DNA from: Mytilus galloprovincialis
Lineage: Eukaryota
NCBI RefSeq assembly: GCF_965363235.1
Contig: NC_134842.1
Location: 34,040,757 to 34,104,756, forward strand
Length of the DNA stretch: 64,000 nt
Reading direction: 5' to 3'
Shown here: piece by piece, positions 362 through 33,765 of the stretch
Numbering within the stretch: the first letter of the stretch is position 1
Layout of the letters: each line of letters opens with the position of its first letter
Position numbers and translations under genes: made by a program
Notes under the pieces: generated by a model
What the model saw: only the letters and a program-made list of their open reading frames with translations
Database searches by the model: none
What the model was told of the DNA's origin: nothing

Positions 362-811
362 GCCCAAGACCACAATTAATGACCCCGCTTTTCGTTGTTC
401 ACGAATATAGTTCCCTTTAATTATAGTGTATTTTTTCTTTATTTTTTTTTCTTTCCCTTTCTCATTCATTTCTTAGCTTTTCTGGGGTGGAAATGAAAGA
501 AGAGAGCTGAAATAAACTTCTGGATGGTTTATTTTAACTGATTTTAATAAGGAAAGAGTGATTAGGCCAGGTGCAAAAAGGTTATATTTACACTTTTCGG
601 AACATCTCTTGACTTGCCTATAGGGGTATGGATGTGTATTGGCCAAATTTGTATGATGTAAAGATGCAATTTTTCTGAAAATTGCATATATTTTTGGACT
701 TGTACTGTACATTACACACACAAAAAATTAGACAAAAAGAATAGGCAATTTTTTTTTAATGCGACAAAACGTTATAAAGAAATGATAGAGGAATTAATTG
801 TGGTCTCGGGC
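362..811. mobile_element. MITE copy (450 bp) inside a satellite unit. 5' terminal inverted repeat GCCCAAGACCACAATTAAT; 3' end ATTAATTGTGGTCTCGGGC. Flanked by CTAATAG / CTAAGAG, a 7-8-bp target-site duplication with one mismatch.
   Basis: Long and short units differ by exactly this 457-bp block (element plus one copy of the duplication). Short units show the empty site gcccctaatag|gtgcatttc. 8-bp duplications are typical of the hAT superfamily. Confidence 0.8.
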
Positions 812-3410
812 CTAAGAGGTGCATTTCAGCAAATTTTGAATTTATACTTTGACAACTTCTCTGAATGATCTATTGGTATTGATTTGTCAAACTATATGAG
901 AAGAAATGATTTCCACTTTTATTTGATAGAAATTTGTAAAAAAAAGTCACTTTTCAGCTGATATGCCCAAAAAGTAGCTTTTTCACTTTTTTCAATATTT
1001 TTGCAAAAGCAGTAATAATTTTTCCTTAATTTTTCTCTGACATTTTTTTTCTGATATTTATTTGTGTTTGTGGTATTTATTTCATGTGTTTTACTCATTT
1101 GTGAACTCTGAACACAAAGAAAAGTGGATAAAAGCATTAAAAGAGTGCAAAATGTGCTGTTTTAATAGTCTAGGTCTAACGGTCCGTACGAAGCAAGTGA
1201 AATATGAAGTTCTATGCACTTAAAAATTTTATTTCTTTAAACAGATTGCACTGAATCTATATCAAAAGCACTTATTACTGGTTGTTTAAACTTGTCTGTT
1301 TCACAGAATACCTTTATTTTCTTCTGTTGGATGGCTGGTGGTTAAAATTTTGGCATTTTAAGACTGAAATTTCATGCAGATTTTAAACAGTAAATTGAAA
1401 AAACTTTGCATCAGACCATACTGTCTACATATATAGTTAAAAGCAACAGTCTTGTAACATCCAGGCTTCATATTTGATCATATCTCAGCAAGGATTTGAG
1501 CAAAAAGAAGCATATTTCCATCTCCAATATCATTTATATGCAATTTAATATGGAAATATAGGGAACGGCCCAAATTGACAACTTGTTATTTTAAGCTTGA
1601 CATTGCTTAAGACCATGTAAAACTCATGTGTTATGCTCTTTGAAACTTATATTTACATCAAAAGAACATTTATGATATGTAAAATGTTTTGTTTTAACTT
1701 AACAACTTCAGAAAATTGTTGTAAGTGGAAAATATTACATTTCATATAAGGCCTCACTTCATTTGAAAACCTCTATTTTTTGGCATAGGCACATATAAAA
1801 TTAACTTTTGTCAAATTTTTATAAGTCTCATACATTAAGTATGCTATCATGTACTTTGAATAGCTAATATATTATCCATTGAGACATTAAAAAGTGCAAT
1901 TTGGTGTTTTTTGGGGATTTTTGAAGCCAAAATTTGAAAGTTGAAATTGTTCTATTTCAACGTCACAATTCAGCAACCAAAGTTGAGATATAAAAAATGC
2001 CACATTTTCTATAATATATATCATATGGCTTTGAAACTTTGTAAACTGACTCATAATACACTAAGCTTAACTCATGCCAAGTTTTATTGGAATTGGTCAA
2101 GTTTTTGGCCCCTAATAGGTGCATTTCAGCAAATTTTGAATTTATACTTTGACAACTTCTCTGAATGATCTATTGGTATTGATTTGTCAAACTATATGAG
2201 AAGAAATGATTTCCACTTTTATTTGATAGAAATTTGTAAAAAAAAGTCACTTTTCAGCTGATATGCCCAAAAAGTAGCTTTTTCACTTTTTTCAATATTT
2301 TTGCAAAAGCAGTATCCTTAATTTTTCTCTGACATTTTTTTTCTGATATTTATTTGTGTTTGTGGTATTTATTTCATGTGTTTTACTCATTTGTGAACTC
2401 TGAACACAAAGAAAAGTGGATAAAAGCATTAAAAGAGTGCAAAATGTGCTGTTTTAATAGTCTAGGTCTAACGGTCCGTACGAAGCAAGTGAAATATGAA
2501 GTTCTATGCACTTAAAAATTTTATTTCTTTAAACAGATTGCACTGAATCTATATCAAAAGCACTTATTACTGGTTGTTTAAACTTGTCTGTTTCACAGAA
2601 TACCTTTATTTTCTTCTGTTGGATGGCTGGTGGTTAAAATTTTGGCATTTTAAGACTGAAATTTCATGCAGATTTTAAACAGTAAATTGAAAAAACTTTG
2701 CATCAGACCATACTGTCTACATATATAGTTAAAAGCAACAGTCTTGTAACATCCAGGCTTCATATTTGATCATATCTCAGCAAGGATTTGAGCAAAAAGA
2801 AGCATATTTCCATCTCCAATATCATTTATATGCAATTTAATATGGAAATATAGGGAACGGCCCAAATTGACAACTTGTTATTTTAAGCTTGACATTGCTT
2901 AAGACCATGTAAAACTCATGTGTTATGCTCTTTGAAACTTATATTTACATCAAAAGAACATTTATGATATGTAAAATGTTTTGTTTTAACTTAACAACTT
3001 CAGAAAATTGTTGTAAGTGGAAAATATTACATTTCATATAAGGCCTCACTTCATTTGAAAACCTCTATTTTTTGGCATAGGCACATATAAAATTAACTTT
3101 TGTCAAATTTTTATAAGTCTCATACATTAAGTATGCTATCATGTACTTTGAATAGCTAATATATTATCCATTGAGACATTAAAAAGTGCAATTTGGTGTT
3201 TTTTGGGGATTTTTGAAGCCAAAATTTGAAAGTTGAAATTGTTCTATTTCAACGTCACAATTCAGCAACCAAAGTTGAGATATAAAAAATGCCACATTTT
3301 CTATAATATATATCATATGGCTTTGAAACTTTGTAAACTGACTCATAATACACTAAGCTTAACTCATGCCAAGTTTTATTGGAATTGGTCAAGTTTTTGG
3401 CCCCTAATAG

Positions 3411-3860
3411 GCCCAAGACCACAATTAATGACCCCGCTTTTCGTTGTTCACGAATATAGTTCCCTTTAATTATAGTGTATTTTTTCTTTATTTTTTTTTC
3501 TTTCCCTTTCTCATTCATTTCTTAGCTTTTCTGGGGTGGAAATGAAAGAAGAGAGCTGAAATAAACTTCTGGATGGTTTATTTTAACTGATTTTAATAAG
3601 GAAAGAGTGATTAGGCCAGGTGCAAAAAGGTTATATTTACACTTTTCGGAACATCTCTTGACTTGCCTATAGGGGTATGGATGTGTATTGGCCAAATTTG
3701 TATGATGTAAAGATGCAATTTTTCTGAAAATTGCATATATTTTTGGACTTGTACTGTACATTACACACACAAAAAATTAGACAAAAAGAATAGGCAATTT
3801 TTTTTTAATGCGACAAAACGTTATAAAGAAATGATAGAGGAATTAATTGTGGTCTCGGGC
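3411..3860. mobile_element. MITE copy (same element as 362-811)
   Basis: Identical sequence and flanks; long satellite unit. Confidence 0.8.
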
Positions 3861-6800
3861 CTAAGAGGTGCATTTCAGCAAATTTTGAATTTATACTTTG
3901 ACAACTTCTCTGAATGATCTATTGGTATTGATTTGTCAAACTATATGAGAAGAAATGATTTCCACTTTTATTTGATAGAAATTTGTAAAAAAAGTCACTT
4001 TTCAGCTGATATGCCCAAAAAGTAGCTTTTTCACTTTTTTCAATATTTTTGCAAAAGCAGTATCCTTAATTTTTCTCTGACATTTTTTTTCTGATATTTA
4101 TTTGTGTTTGTGGTATTTATTTCATGTGTTTTACTCATTTGTGAACTCTGAACACAAAGAAAAGTGGATAAAAGCATTAAAAGAGTGCAAAATGTGCTGT
4201 TTTAATAGTCTAGGTCTAACGGTCAGTACGAAGCAAGTGAAATATGAAGTTCTATGCACTTAAAAATTTTATTTCTTTAAACAGATTGCACTGAATCTAT
4301 ATCAAAAGCACTTATTACTGGTTGTTTAAACTTGTCTGTTTCACAGAATACCTTTATTTTCTTCTGTTGGATGGCTGGTGGTTAAAATTTTGGCATTTTA
4401 AGACTGAAATTTCATGCAGATTTTAAACAGTAAATTGAAAAAAACTTTGCATCAGACCATACTGTCTACATATATAGTTAAAAGCAACAGTCTTGTAACA
4501 TCCAGGCTTCATATTTGATCATATCTCAGCAAGGATTTGAGCAAAAAGAAGCATATTTCCATCTCCAATATCATTTATATGCAATTTAATATGGAAATAT
4601 AGGGAACGGCCCAAATTGACAACTTGTTATTTTAAGCTTGACATTGCTTAAGACCATGTAAAACTCATGTGTTATGCTCTTTGAAACTTATATTTACATC
4701 AAAAGAACATTTATGATATGTAAAATGTTTTGTTTTAACTTAACAACTTCAGAAAATTGTTGTAAGTGGAAAATATTACATTTCATATAAGGCCTCACTT
4801 CATTTGAAAACCTCTATTTTTTGGCATAGGCACATATAAAATTAACTTTTGTCAAATTTTTATAAGTCTCATACATTAAGTATGCTATCATGTACTTTGA
4901 ATAGCTAATATATTATCCATTGAGACATTAAAAAGTGCAATTTGGTGTTTTTTGGGGATTTTTGAAGCCAAAATTTGAAAGTTGAAATTGTTCTATTTCA
5001 ACGTCACAATTCAGCAACCAAAGTTGAGATATAAAAAATGCCACATTTTCTATAATATATATCATATGGCTTTGAAACTTTGTAAACTGACTCATAATAC
5101 ACTAAGCTTAACTCATGCCAAGTTTTATTGGAATTGGTCAAGTTTTTGGCCCCTAATAGGTGCATTTCAGCAAATTTTGAATTTATACTTTGACAACTTC
5201 TCTGAATGATCTATTGGTATTGATTTGTCAAACTATATGAGAAGAAATGATTTCCACTTTTATTTGATAGAAATTTGTAAAAAAAGTCACTTTTCAGCTG
5301 ATATGCCCAAAAAGTAGCTTTTTCACTTTTTTCAATATTTTTGCAAAAGCAGTATCCTTAATTTTTCTCTGACATTTTTTTTCTGATATTTATTTGTGTT
5401 TGTGGTATTTATTTCATGTGTTTTACTCATTTGTGAACTCTGAACACAAAGAAAAGTGGATAAAAGCATTAAAAGAGTGCAAAATGTGCTGTTTTAATAG
5501 TCTAGGTCTAACGGTCCGTACGAAGCAAGTGAAATATGAAGTTCTATGCACTTAAAAATTTTATTTCTTTAAACAGATTGCACTGAATCTATATCAAAAG
5601 CACTTATTACTGGTTGTTTAAACTTGTCTGTTTCACAGAATACCTTTATTTTCTTCTGTTGGATGGCTGGTGGTTAAAATTTTGGCATTTTAAGACTGAA
5701 ATTTCATGCAGATTTTAAACAGTAAATTGAAAAAACTTTGCATCAGACCATACTGTCTACATATATAGTTAAAAGCAACAGTCTTGTAACATCCAGGCTT
5801 CATATTTGATCATATCTCAGCAAGGATTTGAGCAAAAAGAAGCATATTTCCATCTCCAATATCATTTATATGCAATTTAATATGGAAATATAGGGAACGG
5901 CCCAAATTGACAACTTGTTATTTTAAGCTTGACATTGCTTAAGACCATGTAAAACTCATGTGTTATGCTCTTTGAAACTTATATTTACATCAAAAGAACA
6001 TTTATGATATGTAAAATGTTTTGTTTTAACTTAACAACTTCAGAAAATTGTTGTAAGTGGAAAATATTACATTTCATATAAGGCCTCACTTCATTTGAAA
6101 ACCTCTATTTTTTGGCATAGGCACATATAAAATTAACTTTTGTCAAATTTTTATAAGTCTCATACATTAAGTATGCTATCATGTACTTTGAATAGCTAAT
6201 ATATTATCCATTGAGACATTAAAAAGTGCAATTTGGTGTTTTTTGGGGATTTTTGAAGCCAAAATTTGAAAGTTGAAATTGTTCTATTTCAACGTCACAA
6301 TTCAGCAACCAAAGTTGAGATATAAAAAATGCCACATTTTCTATAATATATATCATATGGCTTTGAAACTTTGTAAACTGACTCATAATACACTAAGCTT
6401 AACTCATGCCAAGTTTTATTGGAATTGGTCAAGTTTTTGGCCCCTAATAGGTGCATTTCAGCAAATTTTGAATTTATACTTTGACAACTTCTCTGAATGA
6501 TCTATTGGTATTGATTTGTCAAACTATATGAGAAGAAATGATTTCCACTTTTATTTGATAGAAATTTGTAAAAAAAGTCACTTTTCAGCTGATATGCCCA
6601 AAAAGTAGCTTTTTCACTTTTTTCAATATTTTTGCAAAAGCAGTATCCTTAATTTTTCTCTGACATTTTTTTTCTGATATTTATTTGTGTTTGTGGTATT
6701 TATTTCATGTGTTTTACTCATTTGTGAACTCTGAACACAAAGAAAAGTGGATAAAAGCATTAAAAGAGTGCAAAATGTGCTGTTTTAATAGTCTAGGTCT

Positions 6801-7741
6801 AACGGTCCGTACGAAGCAAGTGAAATATGAAGTTCTATGCACTTAAAAATTTTATTTCTTTAAACAGATTGCACTGAATCTATATCAAAAGCACTTATTA
6901 CTGGTTGTTTAAACTTGTCTGTTTCACAGAATACCTTTATTTTCTTCTGTTGGATGGCTGGTGGTTAAAATTTTGGCATTTTAAGACTGAAATTTCATGC
7001 AGATTTTAAACAGTAAATTGAAAAAACTTTGCATCAGACCATACTGTCTACATATATAGTTAAAAGCAACAGTCTTGTAACATCCAGGCTTCATATTTGA
7101 TCATATCTCAGCAAGGATTTGAGCAAAAAGAAGCATATTTCCATCTCCAATATCATTTATATGCAATTTAATATGGAAATATAGGGAACGGCCCAAATTG
7201 ACAACTTGTTATTTTAAGCTTGACATTGCTTAAGACCATGTAAAACTCATGTGTTATGCTCTTTGAAACTTATATTTACATCAAAAGAACATTTATGATA
7301 TGTAAAATGTTTTGTTTTAACTTAACAACTTCAGAAAATTGTTGTAAGTGGAAAATATTACATTTCATATAAGGCCTCACTTCATTTGAAAACCTCTATT
7401 TTTTGGCATAGGCACATATAAAATTAACTTTTGTCAAATTTTTATAAGTCTCATACATTAAGTATGCTATCATGTACTTTGAATAGCTAATATATTATCC
7501 ATTGAGACATTAAAAAGTGCAATTTGGTGTTTTTTGGGGATTTTTGAAGCCAAAATTTGAAAGTTGAAATTGTTCTATTTCAACGTCACAATTCAGCAAC
7601 CAAAGTTGAGATATAAAAAATGCCACATTTTCTATAATATATATCATATGGCTTTGAAACTTTGTAAACTGACTCATAATACACTAAGCTTAACTCATGC
7701 CAAGTTTTATTGGAATTGGTCAAGTTTTTGGCCCCTAATAG

Positions 7742-8191
7742 GCCCAAGACCACAATTAATGACCCCGCTTTTCGTTGTTCACGAATATAGTTCCCTTTAA
7801 TTATAGTGTATTTTTTCTTTATTTTTTTTTCTTTCCCTTTCTCATTCATTTCTTAGCTTTTCTGGGGTGGAAATGAAAGAAGAGAGCTGAAATAAACTTC
7901 TGGATGGTTTATTTTAACTGATTTTAATAAGGAAAGAGTGATTAGGCCAGGTGCAAAAAGGTTATATTTACACTTTTCGGAACATCTCTTGACTTGCCTA
8001 TAGGGGTATGGATGTGTATTGGCCAAATTTGTATGATGTAAAGATGCAATTTTTCTGAAAATTGCATATATTTTTGGACTTGTACTGTACATTACACACA
8101 CAAAAAATTAGACAAAAAGAATAGGCAATTTTTTTTTAATGCGACAAAACGTTATAAAGAAATGATAGAGGAATTAATTGTGGTCTCGGGC
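7742..8191. mobile_element. MITE copy (same element)
   Basis: Identical sequence and flanks; long satellite unit. Confidence 0.8.
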
Positions 8192-9489
8192 CTAAGAGGT
8201 GCATTTCAGCAAATTTTGAATTTATACTTTGACAACTTCTCTGAATGATCTATTGGTATTGATTTGTCAAACTATATGAGAAGAAATGATTTCCACTTTT
8301 ATTTGATAGAAATTTGTAAAAAAAGTCACTTTTCAGCTGATATGCCCAAAAAGTAGCTTTTTCACTTTTTTCAATATTTTTGCAAAAGCAGTATCCTTAA
8401 TTTTTCTCTGACATTTTTTTTCTGATATTTATTTGTGTTTGTGGTATTTATTTCATGTGTTTTACTCATTTGTGAACTCTGAACACAAAGAAAAGTGGAT
8501 AAAAGCATTAAAAGAGTGCAAAATGTGCTGTTTTAATAGTCTAGGTCTAACGGTCCGTACGAAGCAAGTGAAATATGAAGTTCTATGCACTTAAAAATTT
8601 TATTTCTTTAAACAGATTGCACTGAATCTATATCAAAAGCACTTATTACTGGTTGTTTAAACTTGTCTGTTTCACAGAATACCTTTATTTTCTTCTGTTG
8701 GATGGCTGGTGGTTAAAATTTTGGCATTTTAAGACTGAAATTTCATGCAGATTTTAAACAGTAAATTGAAAAAACTTTGCATCAGACCATACTGTCTACA
8801 TATATAGTTAAAAGCAACAGTCTTGTAACATCCAGGCTTCATATTTGATCATATCTCAGCAAGGATTTGAGCAAAAAGAAGCATATTTCCATCTCCAATA
8901 TCATTTATATGCAATTTAATATGGAAATATAGGGAACGGCCCAAATTGACAACTTGTTATTTTAAGCTTGACATTGCTTAAGACCATGTAAAACTCATGT
9001 GTTATGCTCTTTGAAACTTATATTTACATCAAAAGAACATTTATGATATGTAAAATGTTTTGTTTTAACTTAACAACTTCAGAAAATTGTTGTAAGTGGA
9101 AAATATTACATTTCATATAAGGCCTCACTTCATTTGAAAACCTCTATTTTTTGGCATAGGCACATATAAAATTAACTTTTGTCAAATTTTTATAAGTCTC
9201 ATACATTAAGTATGCTATCATGTACTTTGAATAGCTAATATATTATCCATTGAGACATTAAAAAGTGCAATTTGGTGTTTTTTGGGGATTTTTGAAGCCA
9301 AAATTTGAAAGTTGAAATTGTTCTATTTCAACGTCACAATTCAGCAACCAAAGTTGAGATATAAAAAATGCCACATTTTCTATAATATATATCATATGGC
9401 TTTGAAACTTTGTAAACTGACTCATAATACACTAAGCTTAACTCATGCCAAGTTTTATTGGAATTGGTCAAGTTTTTGGCCCCTAATAG

Positions 9490-9939
9490 GCCCAAGACCA
9501 CAATTAATGACCCCGCTTTTCGTTGTTCACGAATATAGTTCCCTTTAATTATAGTGTATTTTTTCTTTATTTTTTTTTCTTTCCCTTTCTCATTCATTTC
9601 TTAGCTTTTCTGGGGTGGAAATGAAAGAAGAGAGCTGAAATAAACTTCTGGATGGTTTATTTTAACTGATTTTAATAAGGAAAGAGTGATTAGGCCAGGT
9701 GCAAAAAGGTTATATTTACACTTTTCGGAACATCTCTTGACTTGCCTATAGGGGTATGGATGTGTATTGGCCAAATTTGTATGATGTAAAGATGCAATTT
9801 TTCTGAAAATTGCATATATTTTTGGACTTGTACTGTACATTACACACACAAAAAATTAGACAAAAAGAATAGGCAATTTTTTTTTAATGCGACAAAACGT
9901 TATAAAGAAATGATAGAGGAATTAATTGTGGTCTCGGGC
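9490..9939. mobile_element. MITE copy (same element)
   Basis: Identical sequence and flanks; long satellite unit. Confidence 0.8.
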
Positions 9940-12528
9940 CTAAGAGGTGCATTTCAGCAAATTTTGAATTTATACTTTGACAACTTCTCTGAATGATCTA
10001 TTGGTATTGATTTGTCAAACTATATGAGAAGAAATGATTTCCACTTTTATTTGATAGAAATTTGTAAAAAAAGTCACTTTTCAGCTGATATGCCCAAAAA
10101 GTAGCTTTTTCACTTTTTTCAATATTTTTGCAAAAGCAGTATCCTTAATTTTTCTCTGACATTTTTTTTCTGATATTTATTTGTGTTTGTGGTATTTATT
10201 TCATGTGTTTTACTCATTTGTGAACTCTGAACACAAAGAAAAGTGGATAAAAGCATTAAAAGAGTGCAAAATGTGCTGTTTTAATAGTCTAGGTCTAACG
10301 GTCCGTACGAAGCAAGTGAAATATGAAGTTCTATGCACTTAAAAATTTTATTTCTTTAAACAGATTGCACTGAATCTATATCAAAAGCACTTATTACTGG
10401 TTGTTTAAACTTGTCTGTTTCACAGAATACCTTTATTTTCTTCTGTTGGATGGCTGGTGGTTAAAATTTTGGCATTTTAAGACTGAAATTTCATGCAGAT
10501 TTTAAACAGTAAATTGAAAAAACTTTGCATCAGACCATACTGTCTACATATATAGTTAAAAGCAACAGTCTTGTAACATCCAGGCTTCATATTTGATCAT
10601 ATCTCAGCAAGGATTTGAGCAAAAAGAAGCATATTTCCATCTCCAATATCATTTATATGCAATTTAATATGGAAATATAGGGAACGGCCCAAATTGACAA
10701 CTTGTTATTTTAAGCTTGACATTGCTTAAGACCATGTAAAACTCATGTGTTATGCTCTTTGAAACTTATATTTACATCAAAAGAACATTTATGATATGTA
10801 AAATGTTTTGTTTTAACTTAACAACTTCAGAAAATTGTTGTAAGTGGAAAATATTACATTTCATATAAGGCCTCACTTCATTTGAAAACCTCTATTTTTT
10901 GGCATAGGCACATATAAAATTAACTTTTGTCAAATTTTTATAAGTCTCATACATTAAGTATGCTATCATGTACTTTGAATAGCTAATATATTATCCATTG
11001 AGACATTAAAAAGTGCAATTTGGTGTTTTTTGGGGATTTTTGAAGCCAAAATTTGAAAGTTGAAATTGTTCTATTTCAACGTCACAATTCAGCAACCAAA
11101 GTTGAGATATAAAAAATGCCACATTTTCTATAATATATATCATATGGCTTTGAAACTTTGTAAACTGACTCATAATACACTAAGCTTAACTCATGCCAAG
11201 TTTTATTGGAATTGGTCAAGTTTTTGGCCCCTAAGAGGTGCATTTCAGCAAATTTTGAATTTATACTTTGACAACTTCTCTGAATGATCTATTGGTATTG
11301 ATTTGTCAAACTATATGAGAAGAAATGATTTCCACTTTTATTTGATAGAAATTTGTAAAAAAAGTCACTTTTCAGCTGATATGCCCAAAAAGTAGCTTTT
11401 TCACTTTTTTCAATATTTTTGCAAAAGCAGTATCCTTAATTTTTCTCTGACATTTTTTTTCTGATATTTATTTGTGTTTGTGGTATTTATTTCATGTGTT
11501 TTACTCATTTGTGAACTCTGAACACAAAGAAAAGTGGATAAAAGCATTAAAAGAGTGCAAAATGTGCTGTTTTAATAGTCTAGGTCTAACGGTCCGTACG
11601 AAGCAAGTGAAATATGAAGTTCTATGCACTTAAAAATTTTATTTCTTTAAACAGATTGCACTGAATCTATATCAAAAGCACTTATTACTGGTTGTTTAAA
11701 CTTGTCTGTTTCACAGAATACCTTTATTTTCTTCTGTTGGATGGCTGGTGGTTAAAATTTTGGCATTTTAAGACTGAAATTTCATGCAGATTTTAAACAG
11801 TAAATTGAAAAAACTTTGCATCAGACCATACTGTCTACATATATAGTTAAAAGCAACAGTCTTGTAACATCCAGGCTTCATATTTGATCATATCTCAGCA
11901 AGGATTTGAGCAAAAAGAAGCATATTTCCATCTCCAATATCATTTATATGCAATTTAATATGGAAATATAGGGAACGGCCCAAATTGACAACTTGTTATT
12001 TTAAGCTTGACATTGCTTAAGACCATGTAAAACTCATGTGTTATGCTCTTTGAAACTTATATTTACATCAAAAGAACATTTATGATATGTAAAATGTTTT
12101 GTTTTAACTTAACAACTTCAGAAAATTGTTGTAAGTGGAAAATATTACATTTCATATAAGGCCTCACTTCATTTGAAAACCTCTATTTTTTGGCATAGGC
12201 ACATATAAAATTAACTTTTGTCAAATTTTTATAAGTCTCATACATTAAGTATGCTATCATGTACTTTGAATAGCTAATATATTATCCATTGAGACATTAA
12301 AAAGTGCAATTTGGTGTTTTTTGGGGATTTTTGAAGCCAAAATTTGAAAGTTGAAATTGTTCTATTTCAACGTCACAATTCAGCAACCAAAGTTGAGATA
12401 TAAAAAATGCCACATTTTCTATAATATATATCATATGGCTTTGAAACTTTGTAAACTGACTCATAATACACTAAGCTTAACTCATGCCAAGTTTTATTGG
12501 AATTGGTCAAGTTTTTGGCCCCTAATAG

Positions 12529-12978
12529 GCCCAAGACCACAATTAATGACCCCGCTTTTCGTTGTTCACGAATATAGTTCCCTTTAATTATAGTGTATTT
12601 TTTCTTTATTTTTTTTTCTTTCCCTTTCTCATTCATTTCTTAGCTTTTCTGGGGTGGAAATGAAAGAAGAGAGCTGAAATAAACTTCTGGATGGTTTATT
12701 TTAACTGATTTTAATAAGGAAAGAGTGATTAGGCCAGGTGCAAAAAGGTTATATTTACACTTTTCGGAACATCTCTTGACTTGCCTATAGGGGTATGGAT
12801 GTGTATTGGCCAAATTTGTATGATGTAAAGATGCAATTTTTCTGAAAATTGCATATATTTTTGGACTTGTACTGTACATTACACACACAAAAAATTAGAC
12901 AAAAAGAATAGGCAATTTTTTTTTAATGCGACAAAACGTTATAAAGAAATGATAGAGGAATTAATTGTGGTCTCGGGC
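12529..12978. mobile_element. MITE copy (same element)
   Basis: Identical sequence and flanks; long satellite unit. Confidence 0.8.
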
Positions 12979-15567
12979 CTAAGAGGTGCATTTCAGCAAA
13001 TTTTGAATTTATACTTTGACAACTTCTCTGAATGATCTATTGGTATTGATTTGTCAAACTATATGAGAAGAAATGATTTCCACTTTTATTTGATAGAAAT
13101 TTGTAAAAAAAGTCACTTTTCAGCTGATATGCCCAAAAAGTAGCTTTTTCACTTTTTTCAATATTTTTGCAAAAGCAGTATCCTTAATTTTTCTCTGACA
13201 TTTTTTTTCTGATATTTATTTGTGTTTGTGGTATTTATTTCATGTGTTTTACTCATTTGTGAACTCTGAACACAAAGAAAAGTGGATAAAAGCATTAAAA
13301 GAGTGCAAAATGTGCTGTTTTAATAGTCTAGGTCTAACGGTCCGTACGAAGCAAGTGAAATATGAAGTTCTATGCACTTAAAAATTTTATTTCTTTAAAC
13401 AGATTGCACTGAATCTATATCAAAAGCACTTATTACTGGTTGTTTAAACTTGTCTGTTTCACAGAATACCTTTATTTTCTTCTGTTGGATGGCTGGTGGT
13501 TAAAATTTTGGCATTTTAAGACTGAAATTTCATGCAGATTTTAAACAGTAAATTGAAAAAACTTTGCATCAGACCATACTGTCTACATATATAGTTAAAA
13601 GCAACAGTCTTGTAACATCCAGGCTTCATATTTGATCATATCTCAGCAAGGATTTGAGCAAAAAGAAGCATATTTCCATCTCCAATATCATTTATATGCA
13701 ATTTAATATGGAAATATAGGGAACGGCCCAAATTGACAACTTGTTATTTTAAGCTTGACATTGCTTAAGACCATGTAAAACTCATGTGTTATGCTCTTTG
13801 AAACTTATATTTACATCAAAAGAACATTTATGATATGTAAAATGTTTTGTTTTAACTTAACAACTTCAGAAAATTGTTGTAAGTGGAAAATATTACATTT
13901 CATATAAGGCCTCACTTCATTTGAAAACCTCTATTTTTTGGCATAGGCACATATAAAATTAACTTTTGTCAAATTTTTATAAGTCTCATACATTAAGTAT
14001 GCTATCATGTACTTTGAATAGCTAATATATTATCCATTGAGACATTAAAAAGTGCAATTTGGTGTTTTTTGGGGATTTTTGAAGCCAAAATTTGAAAGTT
14101 GAAATTGTTCTATTTCAACGTCACAATTCAGCAACCAAAGTTGAGATATAAAAAATGCCACATTTTCTATAATATATATCATATGGCTTTGAAACTTTGT
14201 AAACTGACTCATAATACACTAAGCTTAACTCATGCCAAGTTTTATTGGAATTGGTCAAGTTTTTGGCCCCTAATAGGTGCATTTCAGCAAATTTTGAATT
14301 TATACTTTGACAACTTCTCTGAATGATCTATTGGTATTGATTTGTCAAACTATATGAGAAGAAATGATTTCCACTTTTATTTGATAGAAATTTGTAAAAA
14401 AAGTCACTTTTCAGCTGATATGCCCAAAAAGTAGCTTTTTCACTTTTTTCAATATTTTTGCAAAAGCAGTATCCTTAATTTTTCTCTGACATTTTTTTTC
14501 TGATATTTATTTGTGTTTGTGGTATTTATTTCATGTGTTTTACTCATTTGTGAACTCTGAACACAAAGAAAAGTGGATAAAAGCATTAAAAGAGTGCAAA
14601 ATGTGCTGTTTTAATAGTCTAGGTCTAACGGTCCGTACGAAGCAAGTGAAATATGAAGTTCTATGCACTTAAAAATTTTATTTCTTTAAACAGATTGCAC
14701 TGAATCTATATCAAAAGCACTTATTACTGGTTGTTTAAACTTGTCTGTTTCACAGAATACCTTTATTTTCTTCTGTTGGATGGCTGGTGGTTAAAATTTT
14801 GGCATTTTAAGACTGAAATTTCATGCAGATTTTAAACAGTAAATTGAAAAAACTTTGCATCAGACCATACTGTCTACATATATAGTTAAAAGCAACAGTC
14901 TTGTAACATCCAGGCTTCATATTTGATCATATCTCAGCAAGGATTTGAGCAAAAAGAAGCATATTTCCATCTCCAATATCATTTATATGCAATTTAATAT
15001 GGAAATATAGGGAACGGCCCAAATTGACAACTTGTTATTTTAAGCTTGACATTGCTTAAGACCATGTAAAACTCATGTGTTATGCTCTTTGAAACTTATA
15101 TTTACATCAAAAGAACATTTATGATATGTAAAATGTTTTGTTTTAACTTAACAACTTCAGAAAATTGTTGTAAGTGGAAAATATTACATTTCATATAAGG
15201 CCTCACTTCATTTGAAAACCTCTATTTTTTGGCATAGGCACATATAAAATTAACTTTTGTCAAATTTTTATAAGTCTCATACATTAAGTATGCTATCATG
15301 TACTTTGAATAGCTAATATATTATCCATTGAGACATTAAAAAGTGCAATTTGGTGTTTTTTGGGGATTTTTGAAGCCAAAATTTGAAAGTTGAAATTGTT
15401 CTATTTCAACGTCACAATTCAGCAACCAAAGTTGAGATATAAAAAATGCCACATTTTCTATAATATATATCATATGGCTTTGAAACTTTGTAAACTGACT
15501 CATAATACACTAAGCTTAACTCATGCCAAGTTTTATTGGAATTGGTCAAGTTTTTGGCCCCTAATAG

Positions 15568-16017
15568 GCCCAAGACCACAATTAATGACCCCGCTTTTCG
15601 TTGTTCACGAATATAGTTCCCTTTAATTATAGTGTATTTTTTCTTTATTTTTTTTTCTTTCCCTTTCTCATTCATTTCTTAGCTTTTCTGGGGTGGAAAT
15701 GAAAGAAGAGAGCTGAAATAAACTTCTGGATGGTTTATTTTAACTGATTTTAATAAGGAAAGAGTGATTAGGCCAGGTGCAAAAAGGTTATATTTACACT
15801 TTTCGGAACATCTCTTGACTTGCCTATAGGGGTATGGATGTGTATTGGCCAAATTTGTATGATGTAAAGATGCAATTTTTCTGAAAATTGCATATATTTT
15901 TGGACTTGTACTGTACATTACACACACAAAAAATTAGACAAAAAGAATAGGCAATTTTTTTTTAATGCGACAAAACGTTATAAAGAAATGATAGAGGAAT
16001 TAATTGTGGTCTCGGGC
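15568..16017. mobile_element. MITE copy (same element)
   Basis: Identical sequence and flanks; long satellite unit. Confidence 0.8.
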
Positions 16018-18606
16018 CTAAGAGGTGCATTTCAGCAAATTTTGAATTTATACTTTGACAACTTCTCTGAATGATCTATTGGTATTGATTTGTCAAACTA
16101 TATGAGAAGAAATGATTTCCACTTTTATTTGATAGAAATTTGTAAAAAAAGTCACTTTTCAGCTGATATGCCCAAAAAGTAGCTTTTTCACTTTTTTCAA
16201 TATTTTTGCAAAAGCAGTATCCTTAATTTTTCTCTGACATTTTTTTTCTGATATTTATTTGTGTTTGTGGTATTTATTTCATGTGTTTTACTCATTTGTG
16301 AACTCTGAACACAAAGAAAAGTGGATAAAAGCATTAAAAGAGTGCAAAATGTGCTGTTTTAATAGTCTAGGTCTAACGGTCCGTACGAAGCAAGTGAAAT
16401 ATGAAGTTCTATGCACTTAAAAATTTTATTTCTTTAAACAGATTGCACTGAATCTATATCAAAAGCACTTATTACTGGTTGTTTAAACTTGTCTGTTTCA
16501 CAGAATACCTTTATTTTCTTCTGTTGGATGGCTGGTGGTTAAAATTTTGGCATTTTAAGACTGAAATTTCATGCAGATTTTAAACAGTAAATTGAAAAAA
16601 CTTTGCATCAGACCATACTGTCTACATATATAGTTAAAAGCAACAGTCTTGTAACATCCAGGCTTCATATTTGATCATATCTCAGCAAGGATTTGAGCAA
16701 AAAGAAGCATATTTCCATCTCCAATATCATTTATATGCAATTTAATATGGAAATATAGGGAACGGCCCAAATTGACAACTTGTTATTTTAAGCTTGACAT
16801 TGCTTAAGACCATGTAAAACTCATGTGTTATGCTCTTTGAAACTTATATTTACATCAAAAGAACATTTATGATATGTAAAATGTTTTGTTTTAACTTAAC
16901 AACTTCAGAAAATTGTTGTAAGTGGAAAATATTACATTTCATATAAGGCCTCACTTCATTTGAAAACCTCTATTTTTTGGCATAGGCACATATAAAATTA
17001 ACTTTTGTCAAATTTTTATAAGTCTCATACATTAAGTATGCTATCATGTACTTTGAATAGCTAATATATTATCCATTGAGACATTAAAAAGTGCAATTTG
17101 GTGTTTTTTGGGGATTTTTGAAGCCAAAATTTGAAAGTTGAAATTGTTCTATTTCAACGTCACAATTCAGCAACCAAAGTTGAGATATAAAAAATGCCAC
17201 ATTTTCTATAATATATATCATATGGCTTTGAAACTTTGTAAACTGACTCATAATACACTAAGCTTAACTCATGCCAAGTTTTATTGGAATTGGTCAAGTT
17301 TTTGGCCCCTAATAGGTGCATTTCAGCAAATTTTGAATTTATACTTTGACAACTTCTCTGAATGATCTATTGGTATTGATTTGTCAAACTATATGAGAAG
17401 AAATGATTTCCACTTTTATTTGATAGAAATTTGTAAAAAAAGCCACTTTTCAGCTGATATGCCCAAAAAGTAGCTTTTTCACTTTTTTCAATATTTTTGC
17501 AAAAGCAGTATCCTTAATTTTTCTCTGACATTTTTTTTCTGATATTTATTTGTGTTTGTGGTATTTATTTCATGTGTTTTACTCATTTGTGAACTCTGAA
17601 CACAAAGAAAAGTGGATAAAAGCATTAAAAGAGTGCAAAATGTGCTGTTTTAATAGTCTAGGTCTAACGGTCCGTACGAAGCAAGTGAAATATGAAGTTC
17701 TATGCACTTAAAAATTTTATTTCTTTAAACAGATTGCACTGAATCTATATCAAAAGCACTTATTACTGGTTGTTTAAACTTGTCTGTTTCACAGAATACC
17801 TTTATTTTCTTCTGTTGGATGGCTGGTGGTTAAAATTTTGGCATTTTAAGACTGAAATTTCATGCAGATTTTAAACAGTAAATTGAAAAAACTTTGCATC
17901 AGACCATACTGTCTACATATATAGTTAAAAGCAACAGTCTTGTAACATCCAGGCTTCATATTTGATCATATCTCAGCAAGGATTTGAGCAAAAAGAAGCA
18001 TATTTCCATCTCCAATATCATTTATATGCAATTTAATATGGAAATATAGGGAACGGCCCAAATTGACAACTTGTTATTTTAAGCTTGACATTGCTTAAGA
18101 CCATGTAAAACTCATGTGTTATGCTCTTTGAAACTTATATTTACATCAAAAGAACATTTATGATATGTAAAATGTTTTGTTTTAACTTAACAACTTCAGA
18201 AAATTGTTGTAAGTGGAAAATATTACATTTCATATAAGGCCTCACTTCATTTGAAAACCTCTATTTTTTGGCATAGGCACATATAAAATTAACTTTTGTC
18301 AAATTTTTATAAGTCTCATACATTAAGTATGCTATCATGTACTTTGAATAGCTAATATATTATCCATTGAGACATTAAAAAGTGCAATTTGGTGTTTTTT
18401 GGGGATTTTTGAAGCCAAAATTTGAAAGTTGAAATTGTTCTATTTCAACGTCACAATTCAGCAACCAAAGTTGAGATATAAAAAATGCCACATTTTCTAT
18501 AATATATATCATATGGCTTTGAAACTTTGTAAACTGACTCATAATACACTAAGCTTAACTCATGCCAAGTTTTATTGGAATTGGTCAAGTTTTTGGCCCC
18601 TAATAG

Positions 18607-19056
18607 GCCCAAGACCACAATTAATGACCCCGCTTTTCGTTGTTCACGAATATAGTTCCCTTTAATTATAGTGTATTTTTTCTTTATTTTTTTTTCTTTC
18701 CCTTTCTCATTCATTTCTTAGCTTTTCTGGGGTGGAAATGAAAGAAGAGAGCTGAAATAAACTTCTGGATGGTTTATTTTAACTGATTTTAATAAGGAAA
18801 GAGTGATTAGGCCAGGTGCAAAAAGGTTATATTTACACTTTTCGGAACATCTCTTGACTTGCCTATAGGGGTATGGATGTGTATTGGCCAAATTTGTATG
18901 ATGTAAAGATGCAATTTTTCTGAAAATTGCATATATTTTTGGACTTGTACTGTACATTACACACACAAAAAATTAGACAAAAAGAATAGGCAATTTTTTT
19001 TTAATGCGACAAAACGTTATAAAGAAATGATAGAGGAATTAATTGTGGTCTCGGGC
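18607..19056. mobile_element. MITE copy (same element)
   Basis: Identical sequence and flanks; long satellite unit. Confidence 0.8.
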
Positions 19057-20354
19057 CTAAGAGGTGCATTTCAGCAAATTTTGAATTTATACTTTGACAA
19101 CTTCTCTGAATGATCTATTGGTATTGATTTGTCAAACTATATGAGAAGAAATGATTTCCACTTTTATTTGATAGAAATTTGTAAAAAAAGTCACTTTTCA
19201 GCTGATATGCCCAAAAAGTAGCTTTTTCACTTTTTTCAATATTTTTGCAAAAGCAGTATCCTTAATTTTTCTCTGACATTTTTTTTCTGATATTTATTTG
19301 TGTTTGTGGTATTTATTTCATGTGTTTTACTCATTTGTGAACTCTGAACACAAAGAAAAGTGGATAAAAGCATTAAAAGAGTGCAAAATGTGCTGTTTTA
19401 ATAGTCTAGGTCTAACGGTCCGTACGAAGCAAGTGAAATATGAAGTTCTATGCACTTAAAAATTTTATTTCTTTAAACAGATTGCACTGAATCTATATCA
19501 AAAGCACTTATTACTGGTTGTTTAAACTTGTCTGTTTCACAGAATACCTTTATTTTCTTCTGTTGGATGGCTGGTGGTTAAAATTTTGGCATTTTAAGAC
19601 TGAAATTTCATGCAGATTTTAAACAGTAAATTGAAAAAACTTTGCATCAGACCATACTGTCTACATATATAGTTAAAAGCAACAGTCTTGTAACATCCAG
19701 GCTTCATATTTGATCATATCTCAGCAAGGATTTGAGCAAAAAGAAGCATATTTCCATCTCCAATATCATTTATATGCAATTTAATATGGAAATATAGGGA
19801 ACGGCCCAAATTGACAACTTGTTATTTTAAGCTTGACATTGCTTAAGACCATGTAAAACTCATGTGTTATGCTCTTTGAAACTTATATTTACATCAAAAG
19901 AACATTTATGATATGTAAAATGTTTTGTTTTAACTTAACAACTTCAGAAAATTGTTGTAAGTGGAAAATATTACATTTCATATAAGGCCTCACTTCATTT
20001 GAAAACCTCTATTTTTTGGCATAGGCACATATAAAATTAACTTTTGTCAAATTTTTATAAGTCTCATACATTAAGTATGCTATCATGTACTTTGAATAGC
20101 TAATATATTATCCATTGAGACATTAAAAAGTGCAATTTGGTGTTTTTTGGGGATTTTTGAAGCCAAAATTTGAAAGTTGAAATTGTTCTATTTCAACGTC
20201 ACAATTCAGCAACCAAAGTTGAGATATAAAAAATGCCACATTTTCTATAATATATATCATATGGCTTTGAAACTTTGTAAACTGACTCATAATACACTAA
20301 GCTTAACTCATGCCAAGTTTTATTGGAATTGGTCAAGTTTTTGGCCCCTAATAG

Positions 20355-20804
20355 GCCCAAGACCACAATTAATGACCCCGCTTTTCGTTGTTCACGAATA
20401 TAGTTCCCTTTAATTATAGTGTATTTTTTCTTTATTTTTTTTTCTTTCCCTTTCTCATTCATTTCTTAGCTTTTCTGGGGTGGAAATGAAAGAAGAGAGC
20501 TGAAATAAACTTCTGGATGGTTTATTTTAACTGATTTTAATAAGGAAAGAGTGATTAGGCCAGGTGCAAAAAGGTTATATTTACACTTTTCGGAACATCT
20601 CTTGACTTGCCTATAGGGGTATGGATGTGTATTGGCCAAATTTGTATGATGTAAAGATGCAATTTTTCTGAAAATTGCATATATTTTTGGACTTGTACTG
20701 TACATTACACACACAAAAAATTAGACAAAAAGAATAGGCAATTTTTTTTTAATGCGACAAAACGTTATAAAGAAATGATAGAGGAATTAATTGTGGTCTC
20801 GGGC
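20355..20804. mobile_element. MITE copy (same element)
   Basis: Identical sequence and flanks; long satellite unit. Confidence 0.8.
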
Positions 20805-23393
20805 CTAAGAGGTGCATTTCAGCAAATTTTGAATTTATACTTTGACAACTTCTCTGAATGATCTATTGGTATTGATTTGTCAAACTATATGAGAAGAAAT
20901 GATTTCCACTTTTATTTGATAGAAATTTGTAAAAAAAGTCACTTTTCAGCTGATATGCCCAAAAAGTAGCTTTTTCACTTTTTTCAATATTTTTGCAAAA
21001 GCAGTATCCTTAATTTTTCTCTGACATTTTTTTTCTGATATTTATTTGTGTTTGTGGTATTTATTTCATGTGTTTTACTCATTTGTGAACTCTGAACACA
21101 AAGAAAAGTGGATAAAAGCATTAAAAGAGTGCAAAATGTGCTGTTTTAATAGTCTAGGTCTAACGGTCCGTACGAAGCAAGTGAAATATGAAGTTCTATG
21201 CACTTAAAAATTTTATTTCTTTAAACAGATTGCACTGAATCTATATCAAAAGCACTTATTACTGGTTGTTTAAACTTGTCTGTTTCACAGAATACCTTTA
21301 TTTTCTTCTGTTGGATGGCTGGTGGTTAAAATTTTGGCATTTTAAGACTGAAATTTCATGCAGATTTTAAACAGTAAATTGAAAAAACTTTGCATCAGAC
21401 CATACTGTCTACATATATAGTTAAAAGCAACAGTCTTGTAACATCCAGGCTTCATATTTGATCATATCTCAGCAAGGATTTGAGCAAAAAGAAGCATATT
21501 TCCATCTCCAATATCATTTATATGCAATTTAATATGGAAATATAGGGAACGGCCCAAATTGACAACTTGTTATTTTAAGCTTGACATTGCTTAAGACCAT
21601 GTAAAACTCATGTGTTATGCTCTTTGAAACTTATATTTACATCAAAAGAACATTTATGATATGTAAAATGTTTTGTTTTAACTTAACAACTTCAGAAAAT
21701 TGTTGTAAGTGGAAAATATTACATTTCATATAAGGCCTCACTTCATTTGAAAACCTCTATTTTTTGGCATAGGCACATATAAAATTAACTTTTGTCAAAT
21801 TTTTATAAGTCTCATACATTAAGTATGCTATCATGTACTTTGAATAGCTAATATATTATCCATTGAGACATTAAAAAGTGCAATTTGGTGTTTTTTGGGG
21901 ATTTTTGAAGCCAAAATTTGAAAGTTGAAATTGTTCTATTTCAACGTCACAATTCAGCAACCAAAGTTGAGATATAAAAAATGCCACATTTTCTATAATA
22001 TATATCATATGGCTTTGAAACTTTGTAAACTGACTCATAATACACTAAGCTTAACTCATGCCAAGTTTTATTGGAATTGGTCAAGTTTTTGGCCCCTAAT
22101 AGGTGCATTTCAGCAAATTTTGAATTTATACTTTGACAACTTCTCTGAATGATCTATTGGTATTGATTTGTCAAACTATATGAGAAGAAATGATTTCCAC
22201 TTTTATTTGATAGAAATTTGTAAAAAAAGTCACTTTTCAGCTGATATGCCCAAAAAGTAGCTTTTTCACTTTTTTCAATATTTTTGCAAAAGCAGTATCC
22301 TTAACTTTTCTCTGACATTTTTTTTCTGATATTTATTTGTGTTTGTGGTATTTATTTCATGTGTTTTACTCATTTGTGAACTCTGAACACAAAGAAAAGT
22401 GGATAAAAGCATTAAAAGAGTGCAAAATGTGCTGTTTTAATAGTCTAGGTCTAACGGTCCGTACGAAGCAAGTGAAATATGAAGTTCTATGCACTTAAAA
22501 ATTTTATTTCTTTAAACAGATTGCACTGAATCTATATCAAAAGCACTTATTACTGGTTGTTTAAACTTGTCTGTTTCACAGAATACCTTTATTTTCTTCT
22601 GTTGGATGGCTGGTGGTTAAAATTTTGGCATTTTAAGACTGAAATTTCATGCAGATTTTAAACAGTAAATTGAAAAAACTTTGCATCAGACCATACTGTC
22701 TACATATATAGTTAAAAGCAACAGTCTTGTAACATCCAGGCTTCATATTTGATCATATCTCAGCAAGGATTTGAGCAAAAAGAAGCATATTTCCATCTCC
22801 AATATCATTTATATGCAATTTAATATGGAAATATAGGGAACGGCCCAAATTGACAACTTGTTATTTTAAGCTTGACATTGCTTAAGACCATGTAAAACTC
22901 ATGTGTTATGCTCTTTGAAACTTATATTTACATCAAAAGAACATTTATGATATGTAAAATGTTTTGTTTTAACTTAACAACTTCAGAAAATTGTTGTAAG
23001 TGGAAAATATTACATTTCATATAAGGCCTCACTTCATTTGAAAACCTCTATTTTTTGGCATAGGCACATATAAAATTAACTTTTGTCAAATTTTTATAAG
23101 TCTCATACATTAAGTATGCTATCATGTACTTTGAATAGCTAATATATTATCCATTGAGACATTAAAAAGTGCAATTTGGTGTTTTTTGGGGATTTTTGAA
23201 GCCAAAATTTGAAAGTTGAAATTGTTCTATTTCAACGTCACAATTCAGCAACCAAAGTTGAGATATAAAAAATGCCACATTTTCTATAATATATATCATA
23301 TGGCTTTGAAACTTTGTAAACTGACTCATAATACACTAAGCTTAACTCATGCCAAGTTTTATTGGAATTGGTCAAGTTTTTGGCCCCTAATAG

Positions 23394-28630: not shown

Positions 28631-28632
28631 CT

Positions 28633-33495: not shown

Positions 33496-33765
33496 AAATA
33501 CAATATTGTTATCTCCATTCTAATGAAACTGACAGAAAACAACGTTAAAACCTGTATTCAAAATATGTCATATGCCGTCTGCGCTTGCGCGTACGTCCCA
33601 TAGCATCAATTGTCAATTGATGCCATGTAAATAAGTGACGTTATCCAATCAAAATGAACGTTACAAACATTGTTGCATTAGAATTTGAAATAGAGTAATG
33701 AACATCCTTAAATCACTGGGTGCATACCCTTTGATTCTGACAGGGCAACACATTATTCTACTTAC

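What the first reader, a model, noticed from the sequence alone, without database searches (positions are those of the whole stretch)
11215..11245. One MITE-free unit carries the 3'-copy variant of the target-site duplication (CTAAGAG instead of CTAATAG)
Every other short unit reads gcccctaatag|gtgcatttc. The unit at 10877-12167 reads gcccctaagag|gtgcatttc, which is the version otherwise found only at the 3' side of an inserted MITE. This is the signature expected from MITE loss by recombination between the two target-site duplication copies, or from gene conversion between L and S units. It is not the original empty site. It also argues that short units can arise secondarily from long ones.
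Basis: seen in the sequence. Interest (0 to 1): 0.5.

Follow-up and report, generated by a model that had tools for sequence, protein, structure and literature searches.

The report
Short satellite unit carrying long-unit repeat variant
One short unit of a tandem repeat carries a base otherwise found only on the far side of an inserted 448-bp inverted-repeat element, which suggests it lost that element or copied the base from a neighbour; this is a tidy but ordinary example of repeat-array turnover.

Summary
The window holds a 19-unit tandem array (1-28631) of long units (L, 1748 bp) and short units (S, 1291 bp). They differ by 457 bp: a 448-bp inverted-repeat element (M1) plus one copy of a 9-mer. 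All 11 L units read CCTAATAGG-M1; the ten internal ones read M1-CCTAAGAGG. Seven S units read CCTAATAGG. One S unit (S*, 11230-11238, G at 11235) reads CCTAAGAGG.

The array interior has only four other substitutions in about 28 kb, so an independent T>G at this one site has a probability of about 4e-4. The G was almost certainly templated by the 3' 9-mer of an L unit.

M1 deletion and short-tract gene conversion cannot be separated. A weak 5-unit periodicity places S* in an L slot.

The "target-site duplication / empty site" premise is doubtful. In 14 related metagenome contigs the T-left/G-right pair is fixed. It also flanks M1 next to an unrelated 3.95-kb segment encoding a Mutator-like transposase. 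The array ends at M1, and no S junction was found elsewhere. All short units may therefore be secondary. An assembly artefact is not excluded.

The parts
11230..11238 (+). S* junction 9-mer CCTAAGAGG in a short unit; the diagnostic G is at 11235.
10877..12167 (+). Its body is identical to the array consensus.
1..28631 (+). Tandem array of 19 units. It runs off the left end of the window. Unit order is L S L S S L L S* L S L S L L S L S L L(terminal). S = 1291 bp and L = 1748 bp.
9482..9490 (+). Example of the 5' 9-mer CCTAATAGG of an L unit, directly upstream of S*. The same 9-mer sits 5' of M1 at 354, 3403, 7734, 12521, 15560, 18599, 20347, 23386, 26425 and 28173.
9491..9938 (+). Example of M1, the 448-bp inverted-repeat element. 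Its termini are CCCAAGACCACAATTAAT and ATTAATTGTGGTCTCGGG (18 of 18 positions with one mismatch; 20 bp if the flanking GG/CC are counted). All ten internal copies are identical.
9939..9947 (+). Example of the 3' 9-mer CCTAAGAGG of an L unit. The same 9-mer sits 3' of M1 at 811, 3860, 8191, 12978, 16017, 19056, 20804, 23843 and 26882.
14269..14277 (+). Example of an ordinary S junction CCTAATAGG. The others are at 2111, 5152, 6443, 17308, 22095 and 25134.
28182..28629 (+). Terminal M1 copy, which forms the right end of the array. It is preceded by CCTAATAGG (28173-28181) and followed by CC plus an unrelated element, not by the unit body. It differs from the internal copies at three sites, all in its right-hand ~100 bp.
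17443..17443 (+). T>C variant shared with 25269, exactly five units (7826 bp) away. It supports a 5-unit higher-order duplication in which S* occupies an L slot.

Best explanation
The G at 11235 was templated by the 3' 9-mer of a long unit. In L units the 448-bp element M1 lies between two imperfect direct repeats, CCTAATAGG on the left and CCTAAGAGG on the right. These repeats sit at the foot of the stem formed by M1's terminal inverted repeats.

Loss of M1 together with one repeat copy leaves a single 9-mer. The loss could occur by replication slippage across the hairpin, by microhomology-mediated repair, or by transposase-driven precise excision repaired on the repeats. If the join falls in CCTAA, 5' of the mismatch, the surviving copy reads G, which is S*. 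If it falls in AGG, it reads T, which is the ordinary S.

I take S* to be a separate, second loss of M1 from an L unit in this recently amplified array. It follows that short units arise from long ones, and probably all of them did.

Shown: the sequence states, the rarity of point changes, and the fixed T/G asymmetry in relatives. Inferred: the deletion mechanism, and deletion rather than conversion.

Confidence that the G is L-templated by either deletion or conversion is about 0.75. Confidence in deletion specifically is 0.45.
For: - S* equals an L unit minus 457 bp with no substitution.
- An independent T>G has a probability of about 4e-4 given four substitutions in 28.2 kb.
- G lies 3' of M1 in 10/10 internal L units and at 14/14 such junctions in related contigs that diverge 4-12%. 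T lies 5' of M1 at 14/14 junctions there. The asymmetry is therefore old and was available as a template.
- The M1 block folds with a terminal stem that runs through both 9-mers (dG -58.7 kcal/mol, z = -4.2). This is the geometry known to favour slippage between flanking direct repeats.
- With S* read as L, the right-hand 12 units are perfectly periodic (LLSLS). The shared SNP pair 17443/25269 is exactly one such period apart, so S* sits in a slot that is L in both other blocks.
- Polarity: the array ends at M1. Related contigs show only L-L adjacency, including two 1888-bp circularly collapsed pure-L assemblies. No S-type junction ORF exists among 5.8 billion proteins, whereas L-type junction ORFs do.
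- Known precedent: Mutator-like elements excise precisely about 90% of the time when 8-9-bp flanking repeats are present, and IS256 is lost by slippage that needs at least 8 bp of homology (PMC5225508).
Against: - The flanks carry no informative sites, so nothing directly ties S* to an L ancestor.
- The periodicity is weak (p about 0.07). The duplicated block may simply stop one unit short of S*, in which case the slot argument is empty.
- Gene conversion is evidently frequent in this array, since the units are identical, and it could write the G into an existing S.
- A single assembly cannot exclude a consensus error at a site heterozygous for L and S.
- The absence of S junctions elsewhere rests on contigs found through an L-specific ORF, which is an ascertainment bias. 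All those contigs are about 5% diverged from this array.
Confidence: 0.45

Rival explanations
1. Short-tract gene conversion. An existing S(T) unit paired with the right junction of an L unit (M1-CCTAAGAGG-body). Heteroduplex ran through the body up to the heterology border 5 bp beyond the mismatch, and repair fixed G. No M1 was lost in this unit.
For: The units are virtually identical across about 28 kb, which implies frequent exchange or conversion. Branch migration naturally stops at the M1/body heterology, which places the T/G site inside the heteroduplex. The sequence outcome is the same as for deletion.
Against: The converted site is only 5 bp from the end of homology. No reciprocal product (an L unit with T on its 3' side or G on its 5' side) is seen in 11 L units here or 14 junction pairs elsewhere. 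In the 5-unit periodic frame the homologous slots are L, not S.
Confidence: 0.28
2. Assembly or polishing artefact. The individual is heterozygous L/S, or reads are mis-assigned, at this slot. The consensus dropped M1 but kept the G column from L reads.
For: Near-identical 1.3-1.7-kb repeats are hard to assemble. The difference is a single base exactly at an indel boundary, where gap placement is ambiguous.
Against: The assembly preserves other unit-specific variants, including 1-bp and 8-bp indels and single SNPs. L-junction reads align better to L units than to an S unit. No other junction shows any irregularity.
Confidence: 0.12
3. S* is a relict of the true ancestral empty site (the target was CCTAAGAGG). 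The 5' copy later mutated G>T in the founder L unit, and the seven S(T) units are the secondary ones.
For: In-window data alone cannot polarise T versus G. The logic that one S class must be secondary holds either way.
Against: CCTAATAGG has perfectly palindromic arms (CCTA/TAGG), and the sequence 3' of the terminal M1 also has T (CCTATAGG). S* is embedded in the youngest, fully homogenised part of the array, with no private variants as a relict might have. Related arrays are L-only.
Confidence: 0.05
4. Independent point mutation T>G in an S unit that matches the 3' 9-mer by coincidence.
For: Point changes do occur in the array: three other events.
Against: The expected number is about 4e-4, or 1.4e-3 under the most permissive count. 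It also requires a transversion.
Confidence: 0.03

Closest known systems
Precise excision or loss of Mutator-superfamily elements and IS256 through their 8-9-bp flanking duplications (Muta1 of Aedes aegypti, Os3378 of rice, IS256; PMC5225508)
   Same: An element with terminal inverted repeats lies between 9-bp direct repeats. Its loss leaves exactly one repeat copy and no footprint. At least 8 bp of homology is available. In relatives a Mutator-like transposase gene lies next to M1.
   Different: The two repeat copies differ at one base, so the two possible products (S and S*) can be told apart. M1 has 18-20-bp termini, not the >100-bp TIRs typical of MULEs. No autonomous element with M1's termini was found. 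Whether the 9-mers are a real insertion duplication is doubtful. Transposase involvement is untested.
TSD-microhomology repair of mPing (Tourist-like MITE) excision sites (PMC4561436)
   Same: A MITE is lost with restoration of a single copy of the flanking repeat, by repair that uses the repeat as microhomology.
   Different: mPing has a 3-bp TTA/TAA duplication and belongs to PIF/Harbinger. Here the repeat is 9 bp and imperfect, and the event lies inside a tandem array where homologous templates abound.
Satellites built from transposable elements: double insertion producing TE tandems and then arrays (PMC5932611), Tetris (PMC4079207), and bivalve MITE/Helentron-associated tandem repeats (PMC3879986, PMC7492417)
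   Same: The tandem array's monomer contains a complete TIR element. The array boundary coincides with the element. Array growth is by unequal exchange.
   Different: Here the monomer is M1 plus 1.28 kb of unrelated 'body', not TE-only repeats or repeats internal to a MITE. The array is a mosaic of units with and without the element.
Concerted evolution and gene conversion within tandem arrays
   Same: Units are almost identical, a shared variant lies at a fixed higher-order spacing, and a one-base patch matches a paralogous junction.
   Different: The patch lies 5 bp from a heterology border, and no reciprocal conversion product is seen.

Membership tests
MITE (non-autonomous TIR DNA transposon) | Short (<~800 bp) and non-coding | tested here: met
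   M1 is 448 bp. It contains only short chance ORFs, the largest 82 aa with no family. There is no Rfam or tRNA match.
MITE (non-autonomous TIR DNA transposon) | Terminal inverted repeats | tested here: met
   CCCAAGACCACAATTAAT pairs with the reverse complement CCCGAGACCACAATTAAT (one mismatch). The termini are conserved in all relatives while the interior diverges up to 12%. A terminal stem appears in the fold.
MITE (non-autonomous TIR DNA transposon) | Target-site duplication of family-specific length flanking independent insertions | tested here: inconclusive
   In the array the flanking repeat is 9 bp, 8/9 identical. The only solo copy (L013) has a 4-bp perfect repeat, or 6/8. The same T/G 9-mers flank M1 beside an unrelated neighbour, which independent insertions would not produce.
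MITE (non-autonomous TIR DNA transposon) | Dispersed copies at unrelated loci | tested here: inconclusive
   One solo copy lies in unrelated DNA (L013). There is no further copy in the 35 kb of non-array window. The host genome could not be searched.
Mutator-superfamily-derived MITE | 8-11-bp TSD | tested here: inconclusive
   The 9-bp imperfect repeat in arrays and the 8-bp (6/8) reading in the solo copy would fit the 8-9 bp reported for Muta1 (PMC5225508). The TSD status itself is in doubt.
Mutator-superfamily-derived MITE | Shares termini with an autonomous element encoding a Mutator-like transposase | tested here: not met
   A 667-aa Mutator-like transposase (PF20700, E = 5e-65) lies next to M1 in L001 and L017. 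It lies between two M1 copies, outside M1's termini. The 3.95-kb segment has no TIRs of its own and no similarity to M1.
Repeat-mediated precise loss of a TIR element (slippage or microhomology repair) | Exactly one copy of the flanking direct repeat remains, with no footprint | tested here: met
   S and S* each retain one 9-mer. The L-to-S difference is exactly 457 = 448 + 9 bp.
Repeat-mediated precise loss of a TIR element (slippage or microhomology repair) | Where the two repeat copies differ, products can carry either variant | tested here: met
   Seven S units carry T and one carries G, and they differ nowhere else.
Repeat-mediated precise loss of a TIR element (slippage or microhomology repair) | The product is derived from a filled (L) ancestor | tested here: inconclusive
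   There are no informative flank sites. Only a weak positional hint comes from the 5-unit periodicity and from L-only relatives.
Satellite / tandem array with TE-containing monomer | Head-to-tail units of constant length over many copies | tested here: met
   There are 19 units with spacings of 1291 and 1748 bp. TRF missed the array because the period exceeds its 500-bp limit.
Satellite / tandem array with TE-containing monomer | Array boundary coincides with the TE | tested here: met
   The right end of the array falls at the end of the terminal M1 (28629-28631). L006 appears to show a left end at M1, but that short-read contig could be chimeric.

The most novel reading that the evidence does not exclude
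M1 together with its two 9-mers may be a portable junction module rather than a simple insertion. Pairs of M1 copies in direct orientation bracket different cargo: the 1.28-kb body here, and a 3.95-kb segment encoding a Mutator-like transposase and a His-Me endonuclease-like ORF in relatives. Such M1-bounded composites would be moved or recombined as units and would seed tandem arrays by unequal exchange between the M1 copies. S and S* would then be the two alternative resolution products of hairpin-mediated loss of the module.
Probability: 0.15. Interest if true: 0.5.

Novelty: new member of a known kind. Interest (0 to 1): 0.25.

Why it matters
If real, S* is a natural marked product. The two flanking repeats differ at one base, so the array records which side of the repeat survived. 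This shows that element-free units in a composite satellite need not be ancestral 'empty sites'.

That bears on how L/S mosaics in satellites are read (insertion polarity and age estimates). It also gives a simple assay, the T:G ratio at short junctions across individuals, for the rate and strand bias of repeat-mediated element loss versus conversion.

The phenomenon itself, loss of a TIR element through its flanking repeats or conversion within arrays, is well known. The gain is a clean example, not a new principle.

Tried and rejected
1. The bodies either side of S* are identical to the L and S consensus, so there are no informative sites.

2. Other M1 or body copies in the remaining 35 kb of the window: none.

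3. Search for S-type junctions elsewhere:
   - The 75-aa ORF spanning the S site hit only L-type junction ORFs.
   - The minus-strand S-specific ORF hit nothing.
It returned 13 chance 18-mers and one real locus, L017.

4. Idea that the 9-mers are 9-bp duplications made by insertion of the 'bodies' (body2 encodes a Mutator-like transposase): rejected. Body1 and body2 share no termini or TIRs, and both show the same G-left/T-right mismatch, which independent insertions would not give.

5. Idea that the end of the body is a degenerate M1 right end, which would make the direct repeat longer than 9 bp: not significant (p = 0.38).

6. TA-duplication (Tc1/mariner-like) reading of M1: the predicted empty site CCCCTAATAAGAGG matches neither S nor S*, and the solo copy lacks TA flanks.

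7. A local template for T>G inside the S unit: neither CCTAAGAGG nor its complement occurs elsewhere in the unit.

8. Organism identification: an exact look-up of the hAT-like ORF found nothing, and a literature search was uninformative. The resemblance of the 161/170-bp repeats at 55-58.6 kb to mussel ApaI satellites is from memory only and was not verified.

9. RNA-family and tRNA scans of one L plus S* stretch: nothing found.

Full report
**What is there.** The first 28.6 kb of the window is one tandem array. Anchoring on the sequence just right of the variable site gives 18 hits spaced by 1291 or 1748 bp, with 1300/1749/1292 in the three leftmost units because of small indels. A 19th, terminal unit follows. 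TRF did not report the array because the period exceeds its limit.

Long (L) and short (S) units differ by exactly 457 bp. This is a 448-bp element, called M1 here, plus one copy of a 9-mer. M1 has termini CCCAAGACCACAATTAAT and ATTAATTGTGGTCTCGGG.
- L units read ...GGCC-CCTAATAGG-M1-CCTAAGAGG-TGCATTTC...
- S units read ...GGCC-CCTAATAGG-TGCATTTC...

The unit order is L S L S S L L S* L S L S L L S L S L L(terminal).

**The observation.** It is correct in every particular.
- CCTAAGAGG occurs 11 times in the 64 kb: the ten 3' sides of internal M1 copies plus the short unit at 11230-11238 (G at 11235).
- CCTAATAGG occurs 18 times: eleven 5' sides of M1 plus seven S units.
- The repeat is 9 bp, not 7, because the neighbouring C and G also repeat.

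**Is it more than chance?**
- The ten internal M1 copies are identical, and the bodies are almost identical.
- Outside the terminal M1, the whole array shows four substitution instances from three events: 4225 C>A, 17443 and 25269 T>C, and 22305 T>C. There are also a few indels in the three leftmost units.
- At that density, the expected number of S units carrying exactly T>G at exactly the one base where the two 9-mers differ is 8 x (4/28200) x 1/3, about 4e-4. It is about 1.4e-3 if any 9-mer and either direction is allowed.
- A global alignment needs no substitution at all for S*: it is an L unit with the 457-bp gap placed one base further left.
- I conclude the G was templated by the 3' 9-mer of an L unit. 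An independent SNP gets about 3%.

**What cannot be decided in the window.** The 1291 bp on each side of S* are identical to the consensus of both L and S units, so no tree can be built. Deletion of M1 from an L unit and short-tract conversion of an S unit by an L right junction give the same sequence.

One positional hint exists.
- If S* is read as L, the right-hand 12 units are perfectly periodic with period five (LLSLS).
- The only shared SNP (17443/25269) is exactly one such period (7826 bp) apart.
- In that frame S* sits in a slot that is L in both other blocks.
- The periodicity alone is weak (p about 0.07 by permutation), and the duplicated block may simply end one unit before S*. I count this as roughly a 2:1 lean towards deletion.

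**Evidence from related sequences.**
- The ORF that spans the S junction was searched against 5.8 billion proteins. It hit only a cluster of ORFs that run from the body into M1, which are L-type left junctions.
- Their contigs (L001-L012, from marine/aquatic metagenome assemblies) are about 95% identical to the body and 88-96% identical to M1. None comes from this array.
- Every one has CCTAATAGG 5' of M1 and CCTAAGAGG 3' of it. The T/G asymmetry is therefore old and fixed across at least three sequence subfamilies.
- Six contigs show L-L adjacency, and two are 1888 bp, which is 1748 + 140. That length is the signature of a k = 141 assembly collapsing a pure L array.
- No S-type junction was recovered. 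The retrieval was biased towards L, so this is suggestive only.

**Doubts about the 'target-site duplication' premise.**

1. In L001 and L017, which come from two different assemblies, M1-CCTAAGAGG is followed not by the body but by an unrelated 3.95-kb segment. That segment encodes a His-Me endonuclease-like ORF and a 667-aa Mutator-like transposase (PF20700, E = 5e-65). In L017 it ends ...GGGT-CTAATAGG-M1. The same T-left/G-right 9-mers therefore accompany M1 beside a different neighbour, which independent insertions would not produce.

2. The only solo M1 found (L013) lies in unrelated DNA. It has no such 9-mers, and its flanks share a 4-bp perfect repeat, or 6 of 8.

3. In the window the array ends at M1. 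The terminal copy (28182-28629) is preceded by CCTAATAGG. It is followed by CC and then a different 445-bp element with perfect 22-nt inverted termini (28632-29076). Its three private differences all lie in its outer ~100 bp.

4. L006 appears to show an array starting at M1. As a short-read contig it could be chimeric.

Taken together, L organisation looks older and more general than S. I put about 65% on all short units of this array being secondary. Independently of that, there is a firm logical point. S and S* differ only at the base where the two 9-mers differ, so they cannot both be an untouched empty site.

**Mechanism.** The 9-mers sit at the foot of the M1 terminal stem. The predicted single-strand fold pairs the termini and continues into both 9-mers (dG -58.7 kcal/mol, z = -4.2). 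Direct repeats of at least 8 bp flanking inverted repeats are the classical substrate for three processes:
- transposase-independent slippage, as for IS256;
- transposase-dependent precise excision of Mutator-like elements, where about 90% of excisions are precise when 8-9-bp repeats are present (PMC5225508);
- repair on repeat microhomology after MITE excision (PMC4561436).

A join in CCTAA keeps the 3' variant (G), and a join in AGG keeps the 5' variant (T). Which process acted, and whether the neighbouring Mutator-like transposase family is involved, is inferred, not shown.

**Rivals.**
- Conversion, 0.28. It is favoured by the evident homogenisation. It is disfavoured by the absence of any reciprocal product and by the periodic frame.
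- Assembly artefact at a heterozygous L/S slot, 0.12. It cannot be tested without reads, although the assembly does preserve other unit-specific variants.
- S* as a relict ancestral site, 0.05.
- Independent SNP, 0.03.

**Comparison and novelty.** This is a new, unusually legible example of known processes: repeat-mediated loss of a TIR element or intra-array conversion, in a composite satellite. M1 meets the size and TIR criteria of a MITE. Duplication length, dispersal and an autonomous partner remain inconclusive or unmet, so I do not file it in the Mutator superfamily.

The most novel reading still open is that M1 plus its 9-mers is a portable junction module bracketing different cargo and seeding arrays (probability about 0.15). 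Overall interest is low to moderate (0.25).

Noticed in passing
window 28173-28631: The tandem array ends exactly at the right end of an M1 copy, not inside a body. This terminal copy differs from the ten identical internal copies at three sites. All three lie in its outer ~100 bp, and one of them (gaTTagg) matches the state in a diverged subfamily.
   Followed up: partly
window 28632-29076: A second MITE-like element of 445 bp has perfect 22-nt terminal inverted repeats (TATAGGTGGCACGGTAGTATTT) with TA at both ends. It abuts the terminal M1 directly. No other copy is present in the window.
   Followed up: partly
window 29079-29166: A perfect 14-nt GC-rich inverted repeat (TGTGCCGGCGAGCG / CGCTCGCCGGCACA) with a 60-nt spacer lies immediately after the second element.
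   Followed up: no
L001 1843-5484 and L017 125-4091: In related metagenome contigs, M1-CCTAAGAGG is followed by a 3.95-kb segment encoding a His-Me endonuclease-like ORF and a 667-aa Mutator-like transposase. In L017 that segment ends in CTAATAGG-M1. It has no TIRs and no similarity to the 1.28-kb body, apart from a weak local match near the right ends (p about 0.003).
   Followed up: partly
L013 2679-3119: The only solo copy of M1 found lies in unrelated AT-rich DNA. It is flanked by a 4-bp perfect repeat (TGTT in M1 orientation), or 6 of 8, rather than the 9-mers seen in arrays.
   Followed up: partly
L010 1884-1963: A different deletion variant in a related array: the first ~28 bp of M1 are joined directly to body position ~514. 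This could be a real imprecise loss or an assembly chimera.
   Followed up: no
L001-L012 versus window 9491-11226: Among relatives, M1 is more diverged from the window copy (88-96% identity) than the adjacent body (about 95-96%), while M1's termini and both 9-mers are invariant. This suggests M1 interiors are exchanged with other genomic copies or evolve faster.
   Followed up: partly
window 9945-28631: The L/S order suggests a 5-unit higher-order repeat (LLSLS), supported by a shared T>C at 17443 and 25269 spaced exactly 7826 bp apart. The three leftmost units (817-5157) carry private indels, including an 8-bp insertion ATAATTTT, and look older.
   Followed up: partly
window 33661-34053 and 43382-43831, minus strand: Exon-like ORFs of a major vault protein gene. 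The second matches the Pfam Vault repeat (E = 6e-36). The window is therefore eukaryotic, probably animal, euchromatin next to the array.
   Followed up: partly
window 49143-50691, minus strand: Two adjacent ORFs of a hAT-type transposase remnant, with a C-terminal hAT dimerisation domain (E = 1e-18).
   Followed up: partly
window 52421-52661, 54381-55751 and 57223-58631: A duplicated block of short tandem repeats with periods of 35, ~135, 161 and 170 bp. The 170-bp unit contains TTTTTGGCCCCTAAT, the same 15 bases that precede the variable site in the 1291-bp unit. From memory only, these resemble mussel ApaI-type satellites and tandem-repeat-carrying elements; this was not verified.
   Followed up: no
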